DNA from: Methanobacteriota archaeon
GTDB taxonomy: Archaea; Thermoplasmatota; Poseidoniia; Poseidoniales; Poseidoniaceae
Direction of reading: 5' to 3'
Assembly: GCA_018650165.1 (NCBI GenBank)
Contig: JABIGM010000026.1
Span: 1 to 23,061, forward strand
DNA: 23,061 nt
Position numbers and translations under genes: made by a program. The notes beneath the pieces were generated by a model. That model made no database searches, was not told the origin of the DNA, and worked only from the letters and a program-made list of their open reading frames with translations. Positions 526 to 18,736 of this stretch are shown here, piece by piece. The first letter of the stretch is position 1. Each line of letters begins with the position of its first letter.

Positions 526-616
526 AATTGACGGTCTTCAAGCCTTTTGGTAGAGGGGTAAATCTGAACGACCTGTAATGCAAATCCTCTTGAGCCACCG
601 CCACACAAAGGCTGGC

Positions 617-3211
617 ATGACCCCGGTGCTTTCGCATCCACTCCTCGATGATGGGGTCGAAGCTAGGGCTTATCAATTGAAGGCTGCCAAAGAAGCAATT
701 TCGGGTTCAACACTCCTAGTAATGCCGACTGGTCTAGGGAAAACCGCTGTTCAATGGATGGCGATGGCTGAGGCAATAGATGGCCCTGGGAGAATTGTAT
801 TGGTTGCTCCAACAACAGGTCTTGTAGCCCAACAAGCAAAGATGGCTAAAGAATTTTTGAAAATAGATTCTGAAAGAATTGTAACTCTGACCGGCCAAGA
901 TCGGCCAATAAAGAGAGAAGAGATTTGGAAACATGCAAAAATTGTAATGGCTACGCCCCATGTAATTAGAAACGATGCCCGGAATGGAAGAATATTACTT
1001 TCGGAAATTGATTTACTCATTGTGGATGAAGCACACCATGCAACCGGTTCAGATTCAATGGCGCAATTAGGTGACATGTATCTTGAAGCATCTCCAAAAG
1101 CCCTAATCCTAGCAGCTACCGCTTCACCAGGCGTAAAGGCAGCCAAGGTTCTAGAAATTATTCAACGTCTCGGAATAGAGCGATTACATATCACAAAGAG
1201 AGACGACGATTTAGTTCAGCCATACATTACATCGATGGATATCGAAAAACATAATTTGAATCTGCCAGATAAATTATTAGAAATTATTAGACCTCTCAGA
1301 ATCTTAGAAGCTGAAGAAGGTGAACTACTAAAGCGCGGTGGTTTCCTTACCAGCCATGGTAGAATTACGACTGCTGCTATCGAAGAAGCACAACGCAGAG
1401 CAAGTGCGGCAATAGGCAAAGGGGATGCACGCGGTTATGATGCTGCCAAACGAATCGGCGACCTGAGAAGACTACACCGGCTGATCGATTTACTTGACAC
1501 GCAGGGCCTAAGGTGTGCAATAATGTATCTTGAAAGAGCTCGTGGAGATAAGGATCGGAAAACCAAACGGTTCCTCTCATTGCCGCCTGTTGCAAATCTG
1601 CTAAGAGAATCTGCCACCAAACAAGAGTGCCACCCCAAACCAGCACTGGTAGAAGAGTTGGTAAGTAGCGGACTAGAGAACGGAGGCAAGGTCATAATTT
1701 TCACTGAATATAGAGATACTGTGAACAACCTGATGGAGATTCTTGAAAAAATTCCAGGAATAAAACCAGGCCGTTTCGTAGGACAAGCAAGCAAAGGTAG
1801 CCAGTTGGGAATGAAACAAAAGGAGCAGATTGAGCAATTAGAACGTTTCAAAGAAGGTGAAATCAATGTCTTAGTTGCTACAAGCGTTGGCGAGGAAGGA
1901 CTTGATGTCCCTGCGGCCGATAGTGTGATTCTATACGAGCCGGTTCCCAGTGCAATAAGAGCAATTCAAAGGAGAGGTCGTACGGCCAGACAGAAGGATG
2001 GAGAAGTACATATCTTGATTGCGCAAGGTACGCGTGATGAGTATGTTCAACAAGCATCATTACGGCGCGAGGAACTGATGTATAGAACTCTAGACTCATT
2101 ACAAAAGCAATCACGACTACCTCGAAGGGCTGCTCCAAATGAAAATGTATTATCTGCATTTTCAGTTGATGGTGAAAATGCAGAATCTTTCATCGAATCT
2201 GAAGAAAAAAGACTATTTCGCGAAAAGAAAGTTGAACCACAAAAAAACCCAGTCCAGAAGAAATCAACAACCAGCACTTATTCTCCTGCCAACCGCCCAA
2301 GAGCACAAAGATCACTTTCGGAATTTAGTACATCTCCAGTGAAGGCGAAAGATGATGGTAAAAAAAGAGATGAAAAATGGTGGAAACCTGTTCTTGATGG
2401 AACAATTACGCATTCTAGAGATAAAGAGTCATCTACTGCTAGCGCAGCACAAACTGAATCAGATTCAATGAGTGAAGAAAAAGATTCTCAAACTATGATT
2501 GTAATCGACCATCGAGAAGCTAATTCGACTTTACCTGCAATGCTAAAATTACAGGGCCATGAAATCAGTATGCAGCATTTAACCGTCGGTGATATTCGAA
2601 TTTCAGATAGAATCTTAATCGAGAGAAAGAGTGCTAGAGACCTTGTCGACTCCTTAATTGATGGACGGTTGATTCACCAGGCAAGAAGATTGCACAGTGC
2701 TGCACCACGGCCGCTAATCATCATCGAATCAAATGAAACGCAAAGGGTTCATCCAAATGCAATTCATGGTGCAATGGCATGGATAACACTTGATCTGGGT
2801 CTGCCTGTAATAATGACTGGGTCTCCAGAACAAACTGCTCGTTTTGTATCGGTAGCTGCAAAAAGAGAGGCTCGGATTCTAGATTTATTGATGAGTCACC
2901 TTAGAAAGAAGCCTATCGATTCAGAAAAATCGGCAATTACTGCTGCATCTGCTGAAATTATGTCAATAATTAATGGTGAATCAGAGGTTGGGCCGCTCGC
3001 ACAGAAATGGTCAAATGAAGTCGTATCTCAAAGAACAAAAATACTAGCAGAATTACCGGGTATTGGAACGAAAACAGCCACGAAGATAATGAGTGTTGCT
3101 GGAGATATAATGGGGCTTTGTATGATTAGTGAGCATGAACTTACCCAAATAAAAGGTGTCTCGTCAATTCAAGCCAGAGACTTATTCAAATTTTTGCATG
3201 GCAATTCATGA
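617..3211 (+). CDS. hef: Hef / FANCM-like SF2 helicase fused to an ERCC4 (XPF) nuclease with C-terminal HhH motifs
   Basis: Helicase motifs MPTGLGKT, DEAHH, TASPG, VGEEGLD and QRRGRTAR; low-complexity linker; nuclease motifs IVIDHRE, GDI and ERKSARD (ERKx3D); HhH motif LPGIG. Start chosen at ATG 617 (MTPVLSHP); the ORF track opens at 578. Confidence 0.93.
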   Translation: MTPVLSHPLLDDGVEARAYQLKAAKEAISGSTLLVMPTGLGKTAVQWMAMAEAIDGPGRIVLVAPTTGLVAQQAKMAKEFLKIDSERIVTLTGQDRPIKREEIWKHAKIVMATPHVIRNDARNGRILLSEIDLLIVDEAHHATGSDSMAQLGDMYLEASPKALILAATASPGVKAAKVLEIIQRLGIERLHITKRDDDLVQPYITSMDIEKHNLNLPDKLLEIIRPLRILEAEEGELLKRGGFLTSHGRITTAAIEEAQRRASAAIGKGDARGYDAAKRIGDLRRLHRLIDLLDTQGLRCAIMYLERARGDKDRKTKRFLSLPPVANLLRESATKQECHPKPALVEELVSSGLENGGKVIIFTEYRDTVNNLMEILEKIPGIKPGRFVGQASKGSQLGMKQKEQIEQLERFKEGEINVLVATSVGEEGLDVPAADSVILYEPVPSAIRAIQRRGRTARQKDGEVHILIAQGTRDEYVQQASLRREELMYRTLDSLQKQSRLPRRAAPNENVLSAFSVDGENAESFIESEEKRLFREKKVEPQKNPVQKKSTTSTYSPANRPRAQRSLSEFSTSPVKAKDDGKKRDEKWWKPVLDGTITHSRDKESSTASAAQTESDSMSEEKDSQTMIVIDHREANSTLPAMLKLQGHEISMQHLTVGDIRISDRILIERKSARDLVDSLIDGRLIHQARRLHSAAPRPLIIIESNETQRVHPNAIHGAMAWITLDLGLPVIMTGSPEQTARFVSVAAKREARILDLLMSHLRKKPIDSEKSAITAASAEIMSIINGESEVGPLAQKWSNEVVSQRTKILAELPGIGTKTATKIMSVAGDIMGLCMISEHELTQIKGVSSIQARDLFKFLHGNS

Positions 3212-4066
3212 ACCGATGAGGATTGCACGGGTTCTTAATTGTGCAAAACGGTCGGTAAAGTGACCTAAAGCGAAGGCGATAATCTCAGTGAGATTAACTA
3301 CAGGAATACTAGTGTCTTTGTTTGCAACTCTTCCTGCTTTACCCTGATATGAATCAAGATTCGAATGTGATTGTGTACAAGCACTAACCAATACTTGTCC
3401 ACCAGCTTTCTTTGCATCATTTAGTACCCTAGCGGTCATCTTCATGACAGTATCTCCAAGCGAAAGCAGTGACGGATTTCCTACACTACTTGTCTTGGTC
3501 TTGTATTCGACAGGACGACCCCCAAGGGCAGTGATTAGTTGTTCCATGTATGTCGGATTCCAAGCATCGTCACCTCCACATGCACCTTTACGCTGCATAT
3601 GTGGTCCGTAGTAGCAAGCGATATCAAGATCTAGAGGGTTGACTACAGCGGCTTCCACTTTGTCCAACCCAATTTCATCTACAAGTACATGCAACAGATG
3701 GCTAGAAGAAATCTCTGATGCATTTAGTGTAAGTCCCGTGGTTTTTTCCAAAACACGATTTGCACTTGCTAGTGCGATTTCATCATTCTGGAAAGTGTCT
3801 AGAGATTCATGGAGAATACCTTGGGCGGAAGCGCAAGCAGTGATTATATCATGGCCTTTTTTCTCAGCAAGTGCTAGATTACGAGCGTTTAGGGCAAGTT
3901 GTAATTCTCTATTTCCTTGCTTGATTATATTTCCACCATCGCTGTTGTAGCCAACGATTTCAATCAGTTCGATCCCAAGGGTTTTGCAAAGCGGTTGAAT
4001 TGTATCTTCGACCTCTCGTGATGATTGGCGAGCTACATTTCCGGGATAATAAGAATATTTTACCAT
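3206..4066 (-). CDS. HdrB / SdhE-like CCG-domain protein with degenerate cysteine motifs
   Basis: Two CCG-like repeats: YYPGN...YNSDGG...TACASA and YYGP...TSSVG...SACTQSHSNLD, ending IPVVNLTEIIAFALG. The spacing fits the CCG family, but most ligand cysteines are substituted. SD GAGGTGA at 4071-4077. Confidence 0.8.
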   Translation of the reverse strand: MVKYSYYPGNVARQSSREVEDTIQPLCKTLGIELIEIVGYNSDGGNIIKQGNRELQLALNARNLALAEKKGHDIITACASAQGILHESLDTFQNDEIALASANRVLEKTTGLTLNASEISSSHLLHVLVDEIGLDKVEAAVVNPLDLDIACYYGPHMQRKGACGGDDAWNPTYMEQLITALGGRPVEYKTKTSSVGNPSLLSLGDTVMKMTARVLNDAKKAGGQVLVSACTQSHSNLDSYQGKAGRVANKDTSIPVVNLTEIIAFALGHFTDRFAQLRTRAILIGS

Positions 4067-4070
4067 GCTA

Positions 4071-4077
4071 TCACCTC
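4071..4077 (-). promoter_or_regulatory. Shine-Dalgarno site GAGGTGA for the HdrB-like gene, overlapping the upstream stop codon
   Basis: Plus-strand tcacctc at 4071-4077; upstream TGA at 4076-4078; ATG at 4066. This suggests translational coupling. Confidence 0.75.
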
Positions 4078-6046
4078 AGAATCTCCCATCTAATTCATTG
4101 AATATTGCAACAACCTCGTGATGGTTGGCAATTTTGGAGTTGAACATGTTTGGTATTTTTCCAATTCCAGCAGGTGGAACAAGCATTCCTTGGAATCCAC
4201 GCATCATTGGACCACCATTGCGTGTAAATCCTAGCATCATCCTGAGAGATATACCATTCATTATGTTAGAACCAAGCCCCAAAGGACCTAGCACTGAGCG
4301 ATAAAGTGTAGTCTCGTTAACATTACCAGACATCTTTACTGAACGTGCGTATGTTTTGACTAGCCGACCAGTCTTTCCGACAAATTTGTATTCAGCCAAT
4401 AGACGTGCTCTTGCAGCGTATAGTGAATCTGCGGCTTGTGACCCATCGATTCCATGGCGGTGTATCGAGGAAATATCTGCCTCATCCCATACGCCACCTT
4501 TGCCTTGCATCAAGTCAAACATCTGCTTGATGTGCGCCTTTCCTGAACGAGGGTCTTGACTTCTAACCCATCGCTGGAGAGCGAGACCTGGGCCAGAATA
4601 TACTTCATCGACGTCATAGGTATCCGACATAGCATTTACCAGTTGGAGTGAACCTACATCTGCTAAAGTGTGAAGATAAGTAGCTTCAGATGATGACATT
4701 ACACCGATTGGAGAGCCATTAGCCAATCTTTCACCTTGGCGTGGGTCTGCTTCCAACCAAGGTTTAGAATCTGCACGAGCATAGTCATAGCGGTCATATG
4801 AGACCATCAGATCTTTCACTACCTCATATCCTGGGACTGGTTCGAGAGTGAGAGTTTCTCCATCGCTTACTAGATCACAGATTCTGGTAGTATCTGCAGG
4901 TAAAATTCTGCCATTTGCCTTAATTCCTGAAAGTGGGTTTTGGCCTACTAGCCCACCACTACGGAATGTAAGAGAACCATCCACTTCCCGCTTTACGGCG
5001 ACCAGTGCATCCTCAATACTAGCATGACCAGGGAGATTTACTGCCACTGTATCGTATCCAGACTGGGCCAGTATAGGGTCGTATCTGAAAATACGCATTG
5101 TGAGAGATATTGCTGGCTGAATGATATTTGCAGGGGTGAAATCTCCGGCATCTACGCCGTCGTCTTCTTCGCCAGCGCCATAAGCAATCATTGCTTCAAC
5201 TAAATCTTCTTGGAATACTCCACCTGAATCGACACAGGCAATTCTTGGAAGAACTTCGCCAACCCATTGACTCCATGGCTCATCAAAGTCCACATCGCAC
5301 AATTTAATATCCAAAATTGATGTTGCACCGAGAGATGCAAATTTACCATCCCAGTCGGTACCTGCTTTGCAGAACTCATCGTACGATGAATCTCCGATTG
5401 CACAAACAGAGTAGTGTACTCCTGAAAGTCCAGGATTAGAACTGCAAGTTGCATTCCAAAGTTCCTCTGCATTATCTGGCATTTCGCCTTCGCCCCACGT
5501 CGAGGTAATAATCAGAATTCTCTTGTGTGTTGCAAACTTGGTTTGATCATAACCATCCATATCGATAACAGATGCCTCCAAACCATACGCTGCTGCTTTC
5601 TTAGCGGTCTTCTCTGCTAAACCTGCTGCGTTGCCGGTTTGTGAACCAAAGAAAACTGCAAGACTGCGGTCTCCAGAAAGAACTCCGGCAAGAACTCCAG
5701 AATTATCTCCCGTATCAGCGGAAGCCGCTGCTGGAGCAGGAGCGGCATCGACAACAGGTGCAACTTCTTCGCTGACTACCTCTGCGGTGCCACCCTCGTA
5801 TTCGAACTTGATAATCTCGACTGGGCAGGCATCTGCAGCCTCTTCGATTAGTTCTGAGTATTCTGCTCGAAACTGAGTTTTAATTGATGAGAAACCAGTG
5901 TTCCTATCGAAAGCACCGTCTTCGCGAACATCCGACTTTATCTGACTCGTATCATCAGTTACCTCGAAAACCTCGGGCAAAATATCTTCACAAGCATCAC
6001 AGGTGATGCAATCTTCCTCTATCCAGACCTTAGCGACGGTTGGCAT
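4076..6046 (-). CDS. Fusion of a single-cluster ferredoxin, a flavodoxin and a cysteine-less SdhB/FrdB-like domain (656 aa)
   Basis: Start at ATG 6046 (MPTVAKVWIEEDCITCDAC) with SD GGGGTGA at 6051-6057. Ferredoxin: CxxCxxC...ACPVEII. Flavodoxin: FFGSQTGNA, ITSTWGEGEMPDNA, AIGDSSYDEFC. SdhB-like: MRIFRYDP, DAL...DGSLTFRS, LEPVPGYEVVKDLMV, KPWL, YSGPG, DPR. Confidence 0.85.
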   Translation of the reverse strand: MPTVAKVWIEEDCITCDACEDILPEVFEVTDDTSQIKSDVREDGAFDRNTGFSSIKTQFRAEYSELIEEAADACPVEIIKFEYEGGTAEVVSEEVAPVVDAAPAPAAASADTGDNSGVLAGVLSGDRSLAVFFGSQTGNAAGLAEKTAKKAAAYGLEASVIDMDGYDQTKFATHKRILIITSTWGEGEMPDNAEELWNATCSSNPGLSGVHYSVCAIGDSSYDEFCKAGTDWDGKFASLGATSILDIKLCDVDFDEPWSQWVGEVLPRIACVDSGGVFQEDLVEAMIAYGAGEEDDGVDAGDFTPANIIQPAISLTMRIFRYDPILAQSGYDTVAVNLPGHASIEDALVAVKREVDGSLTFRSGGLVGQNPLSGIKANGRILPADTTRICDLVSDGETLTLEPVPGYEVVKDLMVSYDRYDYARADSKPWLEADPRQGERLANGSPIGVMSSSEATYLHTLADVGSLQLVNAMSDTYDVDEVYSGPGLALQRWVRSQDPRSGKAHIKQMFDLMQGKGGVWDEADISSIHRHGIDGSQAADSLYAARARLLAEYKFVGKTGRLVKTYARSVKMSGNVNETTLYRSVLGPLGLGSNIMNGISLRMMLGFTRNGGPMMRGFQGMLVPPAGIGKIPNMFNSKIANHHEVVAIFNELDGRF

Positions 6047-6111
6047 GAGTTCACCCCTGCTCAGATGTGAGCAATACGCTCGACTCGTATGTAGTCTTTG
6101 AAGGTTCCTCG

Positions 6112-6131
6112 CCTCTCCCTTTAGGGAGAGG
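6112..6131. terminator. Perfect inverted repeat downstream of the thermosome gene (possible terminator or processing hairpin)
   Basis: CCTCTCCCT-TT-AGGGAGAGG, 30 nt past the thermosome stop. No clear U-tract follows. Confidence 0.35.
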
Positions 6132-6161
6132 GGCATTATTCATGTTTAGACAGGGTGAACT

Positions 6162-7784
6162 TCACATGTGGAAGTCGTCCATTCCACCCATCATATCTCC
6201 GCCAGAGACACCCTTGGATGAAATTACATCATCAATTCTTAGAATCATAATTGCTGTTTCTGTGGCCGACTGTATAGCTTGTTCAACGACACGTAGTGGT
6301 TCCAATACATTTGCAGCACGCATATCCATAACGCCTCCGTCTTCAACATTAATTCCAGAGAATGCTTTACCATCTGCATGGGATTTGCGTAATTCGATAA
6401 TTGTGGTAACTGGATCTAATCCTGCATTTTCCGCAAGAGTTCTTGGAACTATTTCGAGTGCGCTAGCAAAGGCTTCGATCGCCATTTGTTCACGCCCACC
6501 TATCGATTCAGCATAGGCTCGCAGGTCACGTGAAAGGGCAGCCAGAACACTGCCACCTCCAGTCAGAACCGCTCCGTCTTCCCAAGCGACTGAAACCACA
6601 CCGACTGCATCATCGAATGCACGACGGATTTCATCGACAACATGTTCGGTTCCACCACGAAGTAGAACTGAAACTGATTTTGCTTCTGGGCATCCAGTAA
6701 AGAAAGTCATGTTAGACTCTCCGATTTTACGCTCTTCTACTTTCGCCGCTATTCCCAAATCATCCGATGTTAAATCATCGATAGTGGTGACAACTCGTCC
6801 ACTGGTTGCTTTTGAAAGAGCTTCCATGTCGCTCTTTTTAGCACGACGGATAGCAAAAATTCCAACTTTCGACATGTAGTGTTGAGCAAGGTCGTCTATT
6901 CCTTTTTGACAGACGACCACATTTGCCCCACTGGCATTGATTTTGTCCACTAATCCTCTGATGTAGTTTTCTTCTTCATCTAGGAATGATGCTAGCATTG
7001 AGGGATCAGTAATCTGGATTTTCGCATCTACCTCAGTTTTCTTAACTTCGATAGCGCTGTTGATAAGAGCAACTTTTACTCCAGAAATCGAACGAGGCAT
7101 TCCTGCATGGACGCGCTCCTTATCGAGAATTATTCCATCGACAAGAGTACTGTCCTTGATTGAACCACCCTGGCGCTTTTCGACCTTAATATCTGAAAGG
7201 TCGACGATTCTTTCACCATCATCAATAGTTCCTACTGAATTTACTGCTCTGACACAAATATCTGCCAAGAATGACTTAACTGCTCCTGCAGACTTCCCTG
7301 TTAGAGAGGTCTTAGCAACCTCCATCAATACTTTGTCATCATTTTGGGTTGAAATTTCATGAGATGCAAGGCATCCTACTGCCTTTTCAGCAGCCAAACG
7401 GAAACCCTCGCAGATTACAGTTGGATGAACATTCTGTTCAATCAAATCTTCTGACCTCTTTAGCAATTCACCAGCGAGAACTACAGCAGTGGTAGTTCCG
7501 TCATAGCAATGCTGCTCCTGAGTTTTTGCAACTTCTATAATCATCTTAGCAGCAGGGTGCTCTATATCCATTTCTTTGAGAATTGTAGCACCATCATTGG
7601 TGATTACCACATCGCCCATACTGTCAACCAACATTTTGTCCATTCCTTTAGGGCCGAGAGTACTCCTTACAGCATCTGCAACAGCCTTAGCTGCTGCTAT
7701 ATTGTTTGACTGTGCGCTACGACCTCGAGTTCTTTGAACTCCGTCCTTTAGAATAAAGATTGGTGCTTGTCCATTTCCATACAT
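6162..7784 (-). CDS. ths: Thermosome subunit (group II chaperonin)
   Basis: Motifs [47 protein letters not shown] and RIDDVI, plus a GGM-like tail. ATG at 7784 with SD GAGGT at 7792-7796; the ORF track opens at a TTG at 7790. Confidence 0.97.
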
Positions 7785-7847
7785 ATGCAAAACCTCTGCA
7801 GTTCACCGGCACGGGGGGTATGACTTCAACCCATCGTCGATGCAACA

Positions 7848-10800
7848 TCACTGTTGATTATCAAGCCATTGCTGGCCATAGTGTCCCCATTGTTCCATAG
7901 TCCATCCATCTGGAAGGCCTGCTGCGGGCACAGGAGGACCAGAAACGACTTCAGGTGGAGCAGCGATTTGAGGTGATTCTATGACATCTGGGGCTGGCAT
8001 TTGAACTTCAGGGGCACCTATTGTCGGGGCAGCCGCAACCGCACCATATGTTGCCGTCAAGTTGTCTTCATATCCATCCTCGGCCCAATTCTGTTCCTCT
8101 TCTTCTTCAGTACCATTCAGGACCATTAACAACGCTCCGAGTAGAGCAATGATAAGAGCTGTTCCAACGACCCATGTACTAATCCCAACCCAATCGAAAG
8201 AGTCGCTGTCTGAAGAGGATACTACGTCATTACTATCTGATGTTCGTTTCAGGGTAACTGGGAGTTGTAGGGATGCAGCATCTTCTACTGAATTGGAAAC
8301 TGCCCAAATTGTAACTTCGGTATTAATGAATTCTTCATCTAGGGTCAGTAGGATTGAACTTTGTACTTCGAAGACAATGGTTACTTCCCTTTCCCCCTCC
8401 AATTCTAGCCAGAAATCTCTGTCACTAGATTTGATAGAAGAACTATACCAACGGTTGGTTCCTTGCTGATCCATTGACATAGTCACGGATTGGCCTTCAG
8501 TGTACTGGTTTCTAACACGTACAGTAATTTCATACTCGCCTGCCTCATCAATAATCGTTGATTCTGTGGAAATGATTCTTATCCAATTTTGGGAGCCGAC
8601 TCTGTATGTACATTTTCCGTAACTAGAAACACTATCATCGTTTACACTGGTTGCAATGACTTTGAGAATTAATTGTCCATTAGTTCCATCAGCGAAGGTA
8701 AATGTAACGGTGACATTGTAAGATTCACCCGGCTCTAAGAGCGGAGTGGTTTCGCCTTCAACCAACAGCCCAAAGCTTGCATCCATTCCTTCAGGTATAT
8801 CCATGGACATATTGAAGCGATCCGCTTCATTGCCATTGTTGCGTACTTCAAAGCGCATTGATTGCGCTACATCTCCAGGAATGTAGGATTGGTCTGCATC
8901 TTCATCAGAAACCCAAACCGCTGCAGTATCTGTAACATCGATATTGATGGTTATCTGTTCTTTTGCCATTGGATCGTCAACACTAGTTGCGGTTATTCTA
9001 GCAGTGTAAAGCCCCGGAGCCAATCCAACAGGCATTGGCAGATTTAGGGCGATGCTAGTTTCTCCATCCCATGCATCAAGCATTGGTGTTTCAGCTGCAG
9101 AAAGGTAAGCTTCTAATTTCCAATTAGATTGAACTAATTCAAGCGAATAGACTTCATCATCATTACCAAGATTTAGTAAATCGATGTAAACTACTCTAGA
9201 ATTACCATTTGCTGCTGCTTCGATTTCTAACTCCTCTGCAGTCATTGTGAATTCCCTTAGGACAGGGACATCTATTTTCTTTGAAATAACATCATTTCCA
9301 AACAATGCTTGGCCACATGATGGACAAACTGCACGGAGAGAGAATGGAATTTCACCAGGTGTTGCTGTAGAAGGCGCTGTTACATTCAGTAGCAATTCGA
9401 TTTGTTCACCTCTAGCTAATGGCATTGGCATCTGAACTATACTGTGATTCAAATCGGTAACGAATGAAACCCAATCATCGCCTTGGAAGTTAGATGTAAC
9501 GGTGTAGCCTGCTTCACGGTTACCCGCATTCTGTAACTTGAATGGGATGTCAGTGGAAGAGCCTGGAGCCAAGGAAGCCGCTAGTAGTGGCGCTGTTGAT
9601 GATAAGTGAACGCCATATTGTTCTGTGATAGCAATATCGGCAGAGATTCGGCCCATTTCTCCTAATTGTGTGCCTCCAGCATCTGCCCACCATATTTGCC
9701 AAACTTGTTGCTGTACATCTGCACCAGCAGGTATTGAAAGATTGATCCACATTTCAGAAGTGTTACCCGCAGGAATTGCCGGTAGAATTACGCTGGTACC
9801 ATGTTGCGTTGGGTGCTGGCTATCGATTCTAATCATCGGAAGACTTGGGTTCATCCAAGATGCATTTGATACATTTGATTCGATACGGACCTGTGCAGAC
9901 ATGTATCCGTTGTTCTGTATTGAACAGAACATTGGTACAATTGTATTTGGCGGTGTTGTGTAACCGCCGGAAGGATTGTCGCAAGAAATACTCAGAGTAT
10001 ATTCACTAACCTTCTCGATTCCAAACATTACGAAATCGTCAACATGCATTCCGCTAGATGCTCCCGAACCATCGGACTGGAATAAGATTCCATAAGACCA
10101 TGAATGACCACCTAACTCTTCAGTAGGGTCCCAAGAAATATTACTCCATGCGCCTGCAGTAGTGCCTGGAGCATCTTCAACGAAATTGTGAGAAATTGTA
10201 CTTGCTGGTGCACCGTTACCTCTCCATAACTCTAGTGCTACAAAGTCTCCTGCACCCATTTGACCCCATGTTTGAACGTGCATTTGAGCAGAAACTAATC
10301 CTGCAGAGTTTAGTTGCATTTTACACATCCATTGGATGTATTGTTGCGATAATCCCCCATCGAGAGAGGCGCCATTTCCACAGTTACTATCTGCGCCACG
10401 GAAAGCGAAGACTAAACGGCTACGTGATGCTGAAGGATAATCTGAACCTGAGTTCGCATGCCTCCAATTTGCAGTCCCGACCGCGGAAGCGGAATTATCT
10501 GCTTGCCAAATCCCGATTCCATTAGCATCGCTACCATCAAGTGGGTATTCTCCACCATAGAATGTTGGAATCGAAGCGGTTGGTAGTGCTTGGTCACGAG
10601 GATCACCTTCTGCATCCATCTTATCTTGCGACAAGGCTACTGGAAGAGTGTACTCTAAGATATCATTATCGTTTCTATCGTCTGCGGAATTGTAAACTGA
10701 TGCACGAATTATTACTCCGCCCGATAGTTCGTTGGTTGCAACATCTAGGTAAGAGTGAGCCACAAAGGCTTCCCAGTTGAATGTGTCAGTGTAGGACTGC

Positions 10801-11153
10801 CCACCCAGCATAGGGACGGTTTGCCATGAAGTTGAATTCATCACAAAGCCAATCGGATGAACCATTTCAACTGTAACTTTGGCAGTTGAACCTTGTAGAG
10901 CATTTCCTCCTCGCTTTACTTCAACCGAAATATCAACCATGTCGCCTTTAGCGATGTAAACAACTACGCTTCCGTCTGGCTGGATCCAATGATTTGCTTC
11001 TGATGAATTGACTTCTATTTCTGACACCGAGAAATCATCAGATGAACCACCGCGACCCGAGGTTGCCTCCGCATTATCCACAGTTAAACTAAGAATAGAT
11101 TGCATTAGAAGAATGGTCACCAATAGGAATGGTATCGACTTGCGCATATTCAT
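7848..11153 (-). CDS. Large secreted, C-terminally membrane-anchored surface protein with repeated Ig-like (CARDB/NEW3-type) modules
   Basis: N-terminal signal peptide (MRKSIPFLLVTILLMQSILSL). Repeated N-x-GN-x2-D/A-x-Y/F motifs (LQNAGNREAGY, LNLGNDDEVY, VRNNGNEADRF). Many N-x-S/T sequons. TM helix near the C-terminus, then an acidic/Pro-rich tail. Domain names are inferred from motif resemblance. Start could be 11153 or 11147. Confidence 0.75.
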   Translation of the reverse strand: MNMRKSIPFLLVTILLMQSILSLTVDNAEATSGRGGSSDDFSVSEIEVNSSEANHWIQPDGSVVVYIAKGDMVDISVEVKRGGNALQGSTAKVTVEMVHPIGFVMNSTSWQTVPMLGGQSYTDTFNWEAFVAHSYLDVATNELSGGVIIRASVYNSADDRNDNDILEYTLPVALSQDKMDAEGDPRDQALPTASIPTFYGGEYPLDGSDANGIGIWQADNSASAVGTANWRHANSGSDYPSASRSRLVFAFRGADSNCGNGASLDGGLSQQYIQWMCKMQLNSAGLVSAQMHVQTWGQMGAGDFVALELWRGNGAPASTISHNFVEDAPGTTAGAWSNISWDPTEELGGHSWSYGILFQSDGSGASSGMHVDDFVMFGIEKVSEYTLSISCDNPSGGYTTPPNTIVPMFCSIQNNGYMSAQVRIESNVSNASWMNPSLPMIRIDSQHPTQHGTSVILPAIPAGNTSEMWINLSIPAGADVQQQVWQIWWADAGGTQLGEMGRISADIAITEQYGVHLSSTAPLLAASLAPGSSTDIPFKLQNAGNREAGYTVTSNFQGDDWVSFVTDLNHSIVQMPMPLARGEQIELLLNVTAPSTATPGEIPFSLRAVCPSCGQALFGNDVISKKIDVPVLREFTMTAEELEIEAAANGNSRVVYIDLLNLGNDDEVYSLELVQSNWKLEAYLSAAETPMLDAWDGETSIALNLPMPVGLAPGLYTARITATSVDDPMAKEQITINIDVTDTAAVWVSDEDADQSYIPGDVAQSMRFEVRNNGNEADRFNMSMDIPEGMDASFGLLVEGETTPLLEPGESYNVTVTFTFADGTNGQLILKVIATSVNDDSVSSYGKCTYRVGSQNWIRIISTESTIIDEAGEYEITVRVRNQYTEGQSVTMSMDQQGTNRWYSSSIKSSDRDFWLELEGEREVTIVFEVQSSILLTLDEEFINTEVTIWAVSNSVEDAASLQLPVTLKRTSDSNDVVSSSDSDSFDWVGISTWVVGTALIIALLGALLMVLNGTEEEEEQNWAEDGYEDNLTATYGAVAAAPTIGAPEVQMPAPDVIESPQIAAPPEVVSGPPVPAAGLPDGWTMEQWGHYGQQWLDNQQ

Positions 11154-11311
11154 CAACACCTATGCGACATTGATTCCGCATATGAATGTCCCCGTCCCAT
11201 GTCCCCGTAGGGGACAGGGGGTAATGGCTGAATCTAAGCACTGTTTTAATCGCCTTGAAGGGGTGGTAATGAAGCGCAACCTTTGACATAGTGAAGGGGC
11301 GGGATACTGCT

Positions 11312-17798: not shown

Positions 17799-17884
17799 GA
17801 CTGTTCTAAACGGTCTAATGATATAGACCATTTAGTACCATGTTTGAGATTACCCATTCAATACAATATTCGAATAGATGTGAG

Positions 17885-17958
17885 CGGGCGTACGGGGATT
17901 TGAACCCCGGTAATCGGCTTAGAAGGCCGATATGATATCCAAACTACATCATACGCCC
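17885..17958 (-). tRNA. tRNA-Arg(TCT)
   Basis: Acceptor stem GGGCGTA/TACGCCC; anticodon stem TCGGC/GCCGA; anticodon TCT at 17923-17921; GGTTCAAATCC T-arm; no intron; CCA not encoded. Confidence 0.95.
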
Positions 17959-18555: not shown

Positions 18556-18628
18556 GGGCGCTTAGATCAGTTGGAAGATCGCTTGAGTGGCACTCAAGAG
18601 GCCGGGGGTTCAAATCCCCCAGCGTCCA
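18556..18628 (+). tRNA. tRNA-Ala(GGC)
   Basis: Acceptor stem GGGCGCT/AGCGTCC with the G3-U70 alanine identity pair and A73; anticodon stem CTTGA/TCAAG; anticodon GGC; T-arm GGGGGTTCAAATCCCCC. Confidence 0.95.
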
Positions 18629-18736
18629 CCTCCCCCCAAACGCGATACTGAATCGCAGTTGTTTGACGCCACCCGGTTCCATTGAAAAACAGAAGACTGT
18701 TTTCGCTCACAATACAGGAAATTCTGCTAGTCATCA

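What the first reader, a model, noticed from the sequence alone, without database searches (positions are those of the whole stretch)
4076..5110. SdhB/FrdB-like domain with every Fe-S cluster motif erased
Seen: by manual comparison with the SdhB consensus, RSCREGxCGSC...LAC reads RSGGLVGQNPLS...LPAD; ECILCACCSTSCP reads DVGSLQLVNAMSD; and RCHxIxNCxxVCP reads DEADISSIHRHG. Flanking motifs (RIFRYDP, EPVPG..VVKDL, KPWL, GP, DPR) persist. Only one Cys (TRICDL) remains in about 345 aa, and the frame is intact. The tail (YARSVKMSGNVNE) resembles HdrC-type C-termini. Inference: concerted loss of all three clusters without frame disruption points to a maintained pseudoenzyme, not decay.
Basis: partly seen in the sequence, partly recalled or inferred. 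Interest (0 to 1): 0.8.

Follow-up and report, generated by a model that had tools for sequence, protein, structure and literature searches.

The report
Iron-sulfur-free SdhB scaffold with tethered carriers
Marine Group II archaea keep, under strong selection, a copy of the iron-sulfur subunit of succinate dehydrogenase that has lost all of its iron-sulfur ligands. It is fused to a ferredoxin and a flavodoxin and paired with an equally stripped HdrB/SdhE-like partner, so it looks like a conserved scaffold, not a decaying gene.

Summary
Window 4076-5110 (- strand) encodes the C-terminal 344 aa of a 656-aa protein whose likely start is M31 at 6046. The domain order is [4Fe-4S] ferredoxin, FMN flavodoxin, then an SdhB-like domain.

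- **Homology:** the last domain is a true SdhB homologue. Pfam Fer2_3 scores above its cut-off, the model matches FrdB/SdhB at VIA-align Z 23, and Foldseek gives E 1e-13.
- **Ligands lost:** none of the 12 cluster-ligand cysteines of its nearest relatives, type-E SdhB, remain. The region holds one Cys.
- **Not decay:** strong hits occur in 249 of 255 sampled genomes of the order. All 37 loci examined are intact, and dN/dS is 0.01-0.04, as low as in the live ferredoxin and flavodoxin domains.
- **Partner:** the gene directly downstream (3206-4066) is an SdhE/HdrB-like protein that keeps 2 of 10 CCG cysteines. It is adjacent in 37 of 37 loci, and a modelled heterodimer passes its controls.
- **Trend:** basal lineages keep one intact CCG motif, and the N-terminal carriers swap between ferredoxin and flavodoxin. 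This suggests progressive shedding of iron.

My reading is a redox-inert SdhB/SdhE fossil that holds mobile electron carriers. Its acceptor is unknown.

I found no paper on it in the held library. The scan found the same module earlier on another genome (e1-3203474), with the same conclusion. I rate it a new variant of a known kind, interest 0.62.

The parts
4076..6046 (-). CDS of the ferredoxin-flavodoxin-SdhB-like fusion. It is 656 aa from M31. The open frame runs on to 6136, and the stop codon is at 4076-4078.
   Evidence: Homologues of 655-659 aa begin at the equivalent of M31.
5792..6046 (-). Single-cluster [4Fe-4S] ferredoxin domain (residues 31-115). Its four Cys ligands are C43, C46, C49 and C104.
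   Evidence: Pfam Fer4_13 E 3.7e-9. All four Cys are invariant in 38 homologues.
5681..5791 (-). Ala/Pro-rich flexible linker between ferredoxin and flavodoxin.
   Evidence: pLDDT below 50 in the full-length model. dN/dS 0.24, against about 0.02 for the domains.
5237..5680 (-). FMN flavodoxin domain of the CysJ/MioC type (residues 153-300), with motifs GSQTGNA, STWGEGE and GDSSYDEF.
   Evidence: Pfam Flavodoxin_1 E 9.5e-30. NCBIfam cysJ FMN region E 1.7e-36. The FMN-loop residues are invariant.
5111..5236 (-). Acidic linker joining the flavodoxin to the SdhB-like domain.
   Evidence: Part of it has low pLDDT (292-308 in model numbering). This is what the sequence shows.
4787..5110 (-). SdhB-like N-terminal beta-grasp domain, the former 2Fe-2S domain (residues 343-450). 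G395, N400, S403 and D415 stand where the four Cys ligands were.
   Evidence: Pfam Fer2_3, residues 347-448. Alignments. Fold match.
4382..4786 (-). SdhB-like helical domain, the former 4Fe-4S and 3Fe/4Fe-4S sites (residues 451-585). V494, L497, V500 and S504 replace the first motif; E552, I555, I558 and G562 replace the second. S504, D505, E552, D554 and R560 are invariant or nearly so.
   Evidence: The fold aligns to residues 1-251 of the domain model. These residues lie in the modelled interface with the partner.
4079..4381 (-). C-terminal extension (residues 586-686), shared with type-E SdhB. It carries a family-specific, highly conserved insertion loop (GFTRNGG at 4211-4231) and the tail HHEVVAIFNELDGRF.
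   Evidence: Alignment with 315-330 aa type-E SdhB. It is the most conserved part of the SdhB-like domain: 87% identity at a distance where the rest is about 60%. It makes most of the modelled contacts with the partner.
3206..4066 (-). Downstream partner gene: a 286-aa SdhE/HdrB-like protein with two CCG domains that keeps 2 of the 10 motif cysteines (C78, C230).
   Evidence: NCBIfam MFR_anch_SdhE E 4e-35 and HdrB E 2e-32. PDB HdrB chains E 4e-28. Cys table. Adjacent in 37 of 37 loci.

Best explanation
The region encodes a genuine descendant of a type-E succinate dehydrogenase iron-sulfur subunit (SdhB). It keeps the whole SdhB fold and its C-terminal extension, but it cannot bind any of the three Fe-S clusters.

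It is a maintained pseudoenzyme. Together with the downstream SdhE/HdrB-like protein, which is also stripped of its cysteines, it forms a stable and redox-inert heterodimer. That heterodimer acts as a scaffold for the two live electron-carrier domains fused to its N-terminus on flexible linkers: a [4Fe-4S] ferredoxin and an FMN flavodoxin.

Shown here: homology, fold, loss of every ligand, purifying selection, presence across the order, invariable adjacency of the partner gene, and intact cofactor motifs in the ferredoxin and flavodoxin.

Inferred:
- the two proteins bind each other;
- electrons no longer pass through the SdhB-like domain but are carried by the tethered domains, a swinging arm in place of a wire;
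- the stepwise shedding of Fe-S sites is an iron-sparing trend;
- the conserved surface loop GFTRxGG, or the rebuilt polar site at the interface, docks the still unknown acceptor.
For: **Homology and fold.**
- Pfam Fer2_3 scores above its cut-off.
- The family profile matches PDB SdhB chains at E 6e-16.
- The domain model has pLDDT 85.8.
- It matches 1kf6_B at VIA-align Z 23.2 and SdhB chains at Foldseek E 1e-13.
- The nearest Cys-bearing relatives are 315-330 aa type-E SdhB (NCBIfam PRK12576/PRK12577). One of them lies in an sdhA-sdhB-sdhE operon.

**Loss of ligands.**
- None of the 12 ligand positions keeps Cys in the window protein.
- None of 11 keeps Cys in 37 loci.

**Selection and distribution.**
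- dN/dS is 0.012-0.037.
- Strong, stop-free hits occur in 249 of 255 genomes of the order.
- Other families of the class have only a canonical SdhB.
- The same genome has a complete canonical sdhCAB with every Cys motif, so this is an extra paralogue.

**Partner.**
- It lies directly downstream in 37 of 37 loci and is fused in one MAG.
- The complex model scores 0.93, against 0.00 for the best of 3 controls. That mark was reached by 58 of 80 solved complexes and 2 of 110 mismatched pairs. The runs agree in at least 92% of contacts, and the partner's pLDDT is at least 92.
- The interface brings D505, E552, D554 and R560 against the partner's former CCG loop S194-V195-G196.

**Carriers.**
- Ferredoxin Cys and FMN-loop residues are invariant.
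- The linkers are disordered, and the full-length model has pTM 0.34.
- The N-terminal modules vary between lineages: Fd-Fld, Fld-Fld, Fd-Fd, Fld alone and Fd alone. The SdhB-like domain is constant.
Against: - No acceptor or donor has been identified, and the neighbouring genes (thermosome, Hef nuclease) give no functional hint.
- The complex model may pass merely because HdrB-HdrC complexes are solved. It shows likeness, not binding.
- Invariant polar residues sit exactly at the former distal-cluster/CCG interface: S504, D505, E552, D554 and R560, plus the partner's C78, C230 and H234. These could form a new ligand or metal site, which would make 'inert' too strong a word.
- Basal lineages keep a complete first CCG motif in the partner, so at least there the heterodimer may still hold one cluster.
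- dS is 0.9-2 and near saturation, so the dN/dS values are rough.
Confidence: 0.75

Rival explanations
1. Neo-enzyme. The former distal-cluster site and the degenerate CCG loops have been rebuilt into a new substrate or metal site. The candidates are a quinone, a disulfide, or a mononuclear metal held by the two surviving Cys plus His/Asp/Glu. FMN of the tethered flavodoxin would reduce it directly. This overlaps with the main reading and would upgrade 'scaffold' to 'active site'.
For: - The replacements at two ligand positions are invariant (Ser and Glu), and D505, D554 and R560 are invariant or nearly so.
- In the partner, C78, C230, H123, H234, D238, Y240 and Q241 are invariant.
- These residues meet at the modelled interface.
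- Sulfolobus SdhE was reported to hold a zinc site as well as a cluster (PMC2754724).
Against: - No ligand or activity is known.
- Conserved polar residues at a buried interface can be purely structural, as salt bridges replacing a cluster.
- The tools returned no model coordinates, so the geometry could not be checked.
Confidence: 0.3
2. The domain still binds Fe-S clusters or other redox metals through non-cysteine ligands (Asp, Ser, Glu, His), and so remains an electron wire.
For: D415, S403, S504 and E552 occupy ligand positions. From general knowledge, single Asp, Ser or His ligands occur in some Fe-S proteins.
Against: - All 12 ligands are replaced.
- The 2Fe-2S positions vary between the two main families of the order (for example D against G, N against D).
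- The middle cluster site is filled by V/L/V or other hydrophobic residues.
- To my knowledge, no Fe-S cluster is known with no Cys ligand at all.
Confidence: 0.04
3. The Cys-less SdhB-like domain is an alternative, non-conducting partner of the canonical SdhA flavoprotein. It would act as a regulator, or as an adaptor that brings flavodoxin or ferredoxin to the FAD site.
For: - The N-terminal beta-grasp domain is the part that contacts SdhA in complex II (general knowledge). It is well conserved at short range (dN/dS 0.012).
- The genome has one SdhA.
Against: - sdhA is on another contig with its own intact SdhB and membrane subunit.
- At greater divergence the N-domain is the least conserved part: 59% identity against 87% for the C-terminal extension.
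- The flavodoxin is fused where SdhA would sit.
Confidence: 0.06
4. Decaying pseudogene or assembly artefact.
For: None beyond the missing cysteines.
Against: - Every locus examined has an intact frame.
- dN/dS is far below 1.
- The gene is found across the order.
- It recurs in hundreds of independent assemblies.
Confidence: 0.01

Closest known systems
Type-E succinate:quinone reductase / methylmenaquinol:fumarate reductase SdhB with its SdhE partner (Sulfolobus SdhABEF; Wolinella/Campylobacter SdhABE; NCBIfam PRK12576, PRK12577, MFR_FeS_SdhB, MFR_anch_SdhE)
   Same: - These are the nearest sequence relatives: 22-28% identity over residues 36-335 of the domain, including the C-terminal extension.
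- The gene order is the same, with the SdhB-like gene directly followed by a roughly 286-aa two-CCG-domain gene.
- A heterodimer is modelled.
   Different: - No cluster ligands remain in the SdhB-like domain, and only 2 of 10 in the partner.
- There is no sdhA in the operon.
- Ferredoxin and/or flavodoxin are fused at the N-terminus.
- An extra conserved loop (GFTRxGG) is inserted in the extension.
- Scores fall far below the family cut-offs (41 against 344 bits; 122 against 500 bits).
Canonical SdhB/FrdB of complex II (E. coli 1nek_B, 1kf6_B; Wolinella 2bs2_B; M. smegmatis 6lum_B, 7d6x_B)
   Same: The two-domain fold superposes at Z 22-23, rmsd about 3 A, over 234-239 residues. Fer2_3 is recognised by Pfam.
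   Different: - Identity is 13-21%.
- All 11-12 Cys are gone.
- There is an extra extension of about 100 aa.
- The partner is soluble and HdrB-like, not a membrane cytochrome b.
- A real SdhB of this kind exists elsewhere in the same genome.
HdrB (with HdrC) of heterodisulfide reductase (PDB 5odc, 8rvu, 9sfi)
   Same: The partner protein matches HdrB chains at E 4e-28 to 6e-24 over its full length. The extension clasping it in the model is analogous to HdrC wrapping HdrB. That analogy comes from my knowledge of the 5odc structure and was not tested here.
   Different: - The partner lacks 8 of the 10 cysteines that ligate the two non-cubane clusters.
- No HdrA is present, and the host is an aerobic heterotroph.
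- No sequence match of the tail to HdrC was found.
Tethered FMN domains of diflavin reductases (CysJ, cytochrome P450 reductase) and MioC-type flavodoxins
   Same: The flavodoxin domain's best matches are the CysJ FMN region (E 1.7e-36) and MioC. It sits on flexible linkers like a swinging carrier.
   Different: There is no FAD/NADPH domain. It is attached instead to a ferredoxin and to a dead Fe-S subunit.

Membership tests
SdhB/FrdB iron-sulfur subunit (TIGR00384; Pfam Fer2_3 + Fer4_8) | Homologous two-domain fold: beta-grasp plus helical dicluster domain | tested here: met
   Fer2_3 33.9 bits against a cut-off of 27. VIA-align Z 23.2 over 238 residues. Foldseek E 1e-13.
SdhB/FrdB iron-sulfur subunit (TIGR00384; Pfam Fer2_3 + Fer4_8) | Four Cys ligating the 2Fe-2S cluster | tested here: not met
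   G395, N400, S403 and D415 stand at these positions. No Cys is kept in 37 loci, apart from one stray Cys in L006.
SdhB/FrdB iron-sulfur subunit (TIGR00384; Pfam Fer2_3 + Fer4_8) | CxxCxxCxxxCP and the second Cys motif, ligating the 4Fe-4S and 3Fe/4Fe-4S clusters | tested here: not met
   V494, L497, V500 and S504 replace the first motif; E552, I555, I558 and G562 replace the second. No Fer4 family is detected by Pfam in this part.
SdhB/FrdB iron-sulfur subunit (TIGR00384; Pfam Fer2_3 + Fer4_8) | Score above the curated family cut-off | tested here: not met
   TIGR00384 scores 32 bits against a cut-off of 88.
SdhB/FrdB iron-sulfur subunit (TIGR00384; Pfam Fer2_3 + Fer4_8) | Encoded next to the SdhA/FrdA flavoprotein | tested here: not met
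   No FAD_binding_2 gene lies in the window. sdhA lies on contig C5 with its own SdhB.
Type-E SdhB (PRK12576/PRK12577) | C-terminal extension of about 80-100 aa beyond the canonical SdhB | tested here: met
   The extension aligns with 315-330 aa type-E proteins.
Type-E SdhB (PRK12576/PRK12577) | Adjacent CCG-domain SdhE gene | tested here: met
   Found in 37 of 37 loci. The same arrangement occurs in the Cys-bearing relative L011.
Type-E SdhB (PRK12576/PRK12577) | Score above the curated cut-off | tested here: not met
   PRK12576 scores 41.4 bits against a cut-off of 344.
HdrB/SdhE CCG-domain proteins (PF02754), for the partner gene | Two CX(n)CCGX(m)CXXC motifs, 10 Cys in all (motif as given in PMC2754724) | tested here: not met
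   The window protein keeps 2 of 10. Other lineages keep 3 of 10 or 6 of 10.
HdrB/SdhE CCG-domain proteins (PF02754), for the partner gene | Sequence homology over the full length | tested here: met
   MFR_anch_SdhE E 4e-35 and HdrB E 2e-32. PDB HdrB chains E 4e-28. Pfam CCG 23.4 bits against a cut-off of 20.6.
HdrC | Sequence similarity of the tail to HdrC | tested here: inconclusive
   No HdrC chain appears among the PDB hits of the family profile or of the tail alone. Fold was not compared for the tail alone.
Maintained pseudoenzyme | Catalytic or cofactor residues lost while purifying selection and phyletic retention persist | tested here: met
Flavodoxin (PF00258) | FMN phosphate loop and ring-binding loops | tested here: met
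   E 9.5e-30. The GSQTGN, STWGEG and GD..Y residues are invariant in 38 sequences.

The most novel reading that the evidence does not exclude
Marine Group II archaea have replaced a fixed Fe-S electron wire (up to about 11 Fe in SdhB plus the CCG clusters) by flavodoxin and ferredoxin domains swinging on tethers from the emptied SdhB/SdhE shell. The result would be a low-iron oxidoreductase, completely iron-free in the Fld-Fld lineages. It would pass electrons from ferredoxin-dependent 2-oxoacid oxidation to a membrane acceptor, either quinone or the complex I that lacks NuoF in this genome.
Probability: 0.15. Interest if true: 0.85.

Novelty: new variant of a known kind. Interest (0 to 1): 0.62.

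Why it matters
- **Abundance and annotation.** Poseidoniales are among the most abundant archaea of the surface ocean. This two-gene module was found in almost every sampled genome of the order, and it has no described function. Public records name it 'flavodoxin domain-containing protein' and 'heterodisulfide reductase-related iron-sulfur binding cluster'. The second name is misleading, because most of the ligands are gone.
- **A dead electron wire.** This is a clean natural case of a whole electron-transfer chain being erased while the fold, the subunit interface and strong selection persist. Intermediate states are still alive in basal lineages.
- **Iron economy.** If the loss is an iron-sparing adaptation, it bears on how plankton economise iron. 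The repeated ferredoxin-to-flavodoxin swaps fit this idea.
- **Electron entry.** It may also point to the unknown route by which these archaea feed low-potential electrons into their respiratory chain.

Tried and rejected
1. **Intermediate hits in a sister family.** G031 and G049 gave E 1e-22 to 1e-25, and I hoped they were ancestral forms. They are ordinary 237-aa SdhB proteins with all Cys, in sdhBCD operons.
2. **A Cys-bearing SdhB fused to flavodoxin.** I looked among the 150 best representatives and found none. The longer hits are SdhA-SdhB read-throughs, TfrB-like SdhB-CCG fusions or Rieske fusions.
3. **Other low-Cys SdhB-like hits outside the family.** These are fragments or frameshifted gene calls with junk C-termini.
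4. **HdrC likeness of the tail.** No PDB HdrC match appeared.
5. **Cytochrome c likeness of the insertion loop.** It weakly resembles the Met-loop region of small c-type cytochromes (E 0.8-1.3). I treat this as chance, because the Met residues are not conserved in the family and there is no CxxCH.
6. **The fused ferredoxin as the genome's only ferredoxin.** Rejected. At least three other small ferredoxin-like ORFs exist: C21:2819-3019, C16:28573-28902 and C43:13402-13779. The flavodoxin is the only Flavodoxin_1 hit, in a genome that is 80% complete.
7. **Full-length model.** It gave no confident arrangement between domains (pTM 0.34). The flavodoxin cannot be placed relative to the empty cluster sites.
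8. **Cluster cavities.** They could not be inspected, because the tools return no coordinates.
9. **Literature.** Four searches found nothing on this protein.
Full report
**What is there.**

The finding lies inside one intact ORF on the minus strand, 4076..6136. Homologues are 655-659 aa and begin at the equivalent of M31, so the real start is most likely 6046. Pfam and NCBIfam give three modules:
- a single-cluster ferredoxin (Fer4_13, residues 40-110);
- a CysJ/MioC-type flavodoxin (Flavodoxin_1, residues 161-286, E 9.5e-30);
- an SdhB-type Fer2_3 domain (residues 347-448, E 3.4e-8, above the gathering score).

The finding's coordinates, 4076-5110, are residues 343-686 plus the stop codon. 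That is the whole SdhB-like part.

**Check of the observation.**

I aligned the region with its nearest cysteine-bearing relatives and with the genome's own SdhB. Every ligand position is substituted:
- 2Fe-2S site: G395, N400, S403, D415.
- First 4Fe-4S motif: V494, L497, V500, S504.
- Second motif: E552, I555, I558, G562.

One cysteine (C420) remains in the last 350 residues.

The similarity is not chance:
- The family profile hits PDB SdhB chains at E 6e-16.
- A model of residues 337-686 has pLDDT 85.8 and pTM 0.78.
- It superposes on FrdB/SdhB with VIA-align Z 22-23, rmsd about 3 A over 234-239 residues.
- Foldseek gives E 1e-13 and target TM 0.75-0.84.

It is not met.

**Where it comes from.**

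An exhaustive HMMER search of 1.84 billion representatives found only about a dozen 50%-identity clusters of the Cys-less family. The next hits were 315-330 aa SdhB proteins with all cysteines, which align through the C-terminal extension.

NCBIfam places those proteins nearest the type-E SdhB models PRK12576/PRK12577. One of them lies in an sdhA-sdhB-sdhE(CCG) operon. I found no direct sequence match to HdrC.

The window's genome also has a complete canonical sdhC-sdhA-sdhB set on another contig, with all three Cys motifs intact. The Cys-less domain is therefore an additional paralogue, not the cell's SdhB.

**Is it maintained?**

Source names place the homologues in Candidatus Poseidoniaceae, Thalassarchaeum and Poseidoniales.

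A profile of the Cys-less domain gave strong hits (E 1e-93 to 1e-163) in 249 of 255 sampled genomes of the order. The six genomes without one are 80-86% complete MAGs. None of the listed matches had in-frame stops. The other families of the class had only canonical-SdhB-level hits.

In 37 diverse loci, none of 11 ligand columns keeps Cys, apart from one stray Cys in L006. Two replaced positions are themselves invariant: Ser at the last Cys of the first motif, and Glu at the first Cys of the second.

Against a 91%-identical orthologue, dN/dS runs as follows:

| Part | dN/dS |
|---|---|
| SdhB-like N-terminal domain | 0.012 |
| SdhB-like helical domain | 0.037 |
| C-terminal extension | 0.023 |
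| Ferredoxin | 0.027 |
| Flavodoxin | 0.021 |
| Inter-domain linker | 0.24 |

dS is 0.9-2 and near saturation, so these values are rough. The reading 'maintained, not decaying' is supported.

**The partner.**

The gene directly downstream (3206-4066, 10 nt after the stop) is a 286-aa SdhE/HdrB homologue:
- NCBIfam MFR_anch_SdhE, E 4e-35, and HdrB, E 2e-32;
- PDB HdrB chains, E 4e-28.

It follows the fusion gene in 37 of 37 loci. In one MAG the two genes are a single 997-aa frame.

At the ten CCG-motif cysteines (motif as defined in PMC2754724), three states occur:
- The window protein and its family keep 2 (pattern NSDC[SA]-PSVCS).
- Most of the sister family keep 3.
- Several basal genera keep the whole first motif and one Cys of the second (CCCCC-[AS]SVCS).

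On a tree of the SdhB-like domain rooted with type-E SdhB, the CCCCC state sits in the basal lineages and in the basal clade of the sister family. The first motif was lost in two changes (quick method, SH-aLRT support only).

A model of the heterodimer scored 0.93, against 0.00 for the best of three controls. That mark was reached by 58 of 80 solved complexes and 2 of 110 mismatched pairs. The runs agree in at least 92% of contacts, and the partner's pLDDT is at least 92. HdrB-HdrC complexes are solved, so this pass shows likeness, not proven binding.

The modelled interface uses the whole C-terminal extension. It sets the invariant D505, E552, D554 and R560 against the partner's former CCG loop S194-V195-G196.

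**The carriers.**

The four ferredoxin cysteines and the FMN-binding loops are invariant in 38 homologues. Both linkers are disordered in the full-length model, which has pTM 0.34.

The N-terminal modules differ between lineages, while the SdhB-like domain is constant:
- Fd-Fld in most;
- Fld-Fld in at least three places on the tree;
- Fd-Fd in one basal lineage;
- Fld alone or Fd alone in single cases.

In Fld-Fld lineages whose partner keeps 3 of 10 Cys, the module has no recognisable Fe-S site left at all.

**How it most likely works.**

Shown: the SdhB-like domain cannot carry the three clusters, and it is conserved as strongly as the live domains.

Inferred: it forms a redox-inert shell with the SdhE-like protein. 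That shell holds one or two mobile low-potential carriers. Electron transfer is done by those tethered domains and no longer by a wire through SdhB.

The flavodoxin is fused at the SdhB N-terminus, where SdhA sits in complex II. That placement comes from general knowledge and was not tested here.

Two places are candidates for docking the unknown acceptor or substrate:
- the most conserved feature that lies outside the modelled interface, the family-specific loop GFTRxGG;
- the rebuilt polar site at the interface.

The direction of change is toward less iron. Clusters were lost first in SdhB, then in one CCG domain, then in the other. Ferredoxin was repeatedly replaced by flavodoxin. This fits iron sparing in surface-ocean plankton, but it was not tested against environmental data.

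Context in this 80%-complete genome:
- one 2-oxoacid:ferredoxin oxidoreductase;
- NuoD present and NuoF not found;
- no other Flavodoxin_1 domain;
- other small ferredoxins do exist.

**Comparison and novelty.**

The module works like, and descends from, the SdhB-SdhE half of type-E succinate:quinone reductases. It fails the defining tests for membership as an iron-sulfur subunit: ligands, family cut-offs and an adjacent sdhA.

I found no paper describing it. Database names are generic or misleading.

The scan had already found the same module on another genome, and a follow-up there reached the same conclusion (e1-3203474). My results were obtained independently and agree with it.

I class it as a new variant of a known kind, interest 0.62.

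Noticed in passing
L042:1871-4831 (+) (G048:C27): In one MAG the fusion gene and its HdrB-like partner are a single 997-aa open frame. The last 35 or so codons of the first gene, the otherwise highly conserved HHEVV...RF tail, are missing at the junction. This is either a real Rosetta-stone fusion or an assembly deletion.
   Followed up: partly
L006, L043, L017, L044, L045, L046 (partner genes): Basal lineages of the order keep all five cysteines of the first CCG motif in the partner but only one of the second. These are living intermediates in the loss of Fe-S sites. Both derived states share Asn and Ser at the first two positions, although the tree needs two losses.
   Followed up: partly
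L028, L005, L027, L030, L042 (Fld-Fld); L006 (Fd-Fd); L021 (Fld only); P0135 (Fd only): The N-terminal carrier modules of the fusion protein are swapped repeatedly between ferredoxin and flavodoxin, while the Cys-less SdhB-like domain stays constant.
   Followed up: partly
window 4190-4270 (-), residues about 623-649: The family-specific insertion loop (GFTRNGGPMMRGFQGMLVPPAGIG) weakly resembles the axial-Met loop region of small c-type cytochromes (PDB 6u97, 5mcs; E about 0.8). This is probably chance: there is no CxxCH, and the Met residues are not conserved.
   Followed up: partly
PDB 3kwl_A (not in the window): An uncharacterised 498-aa Helicobacter pylori protein shares the SdhB-like two-domain fold with the model (VIA-align Z 11.3, 194 residues). 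It is still listed as of unknown function in PMC3397514.
   Followed up: no
L004:4176-5033 (+) (G000:C5): The canonical sdhA-sdhB pair of this genome is preceded by a 285-aa hydrophobic protein, rich in Trp and Tyr, with no Pfam match. It is presumably an unusual membrane anchor of complex II.
   Followed up: no
window 6162-11159 (-) and 578-3211 (+): The gene order is: 1103-aa CARDB-like surface protein, thermosome, fusion gene, partner gene, then Hef helicase-nuclease on the opposite strand. It is conserved even in the most distant family member (34% identity, L006/L007).
   Followed up: partly
P0207, P0218, P0252, P0259 (representative library): Several 'SdhB' representatives have a normal 2Fe-2S domain followed by Arg/Pro/Ser-rich junk. 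These are frameshifted gene calls in metagenome assemblies. They could be mistaken for partial cluster loss.
   Followed up: yes
window 17884-17958 (-), 18556-18630 (+): tRNA-Arg(TCT) and tRNA-Ala(GGC) genes.
   Followed up: no
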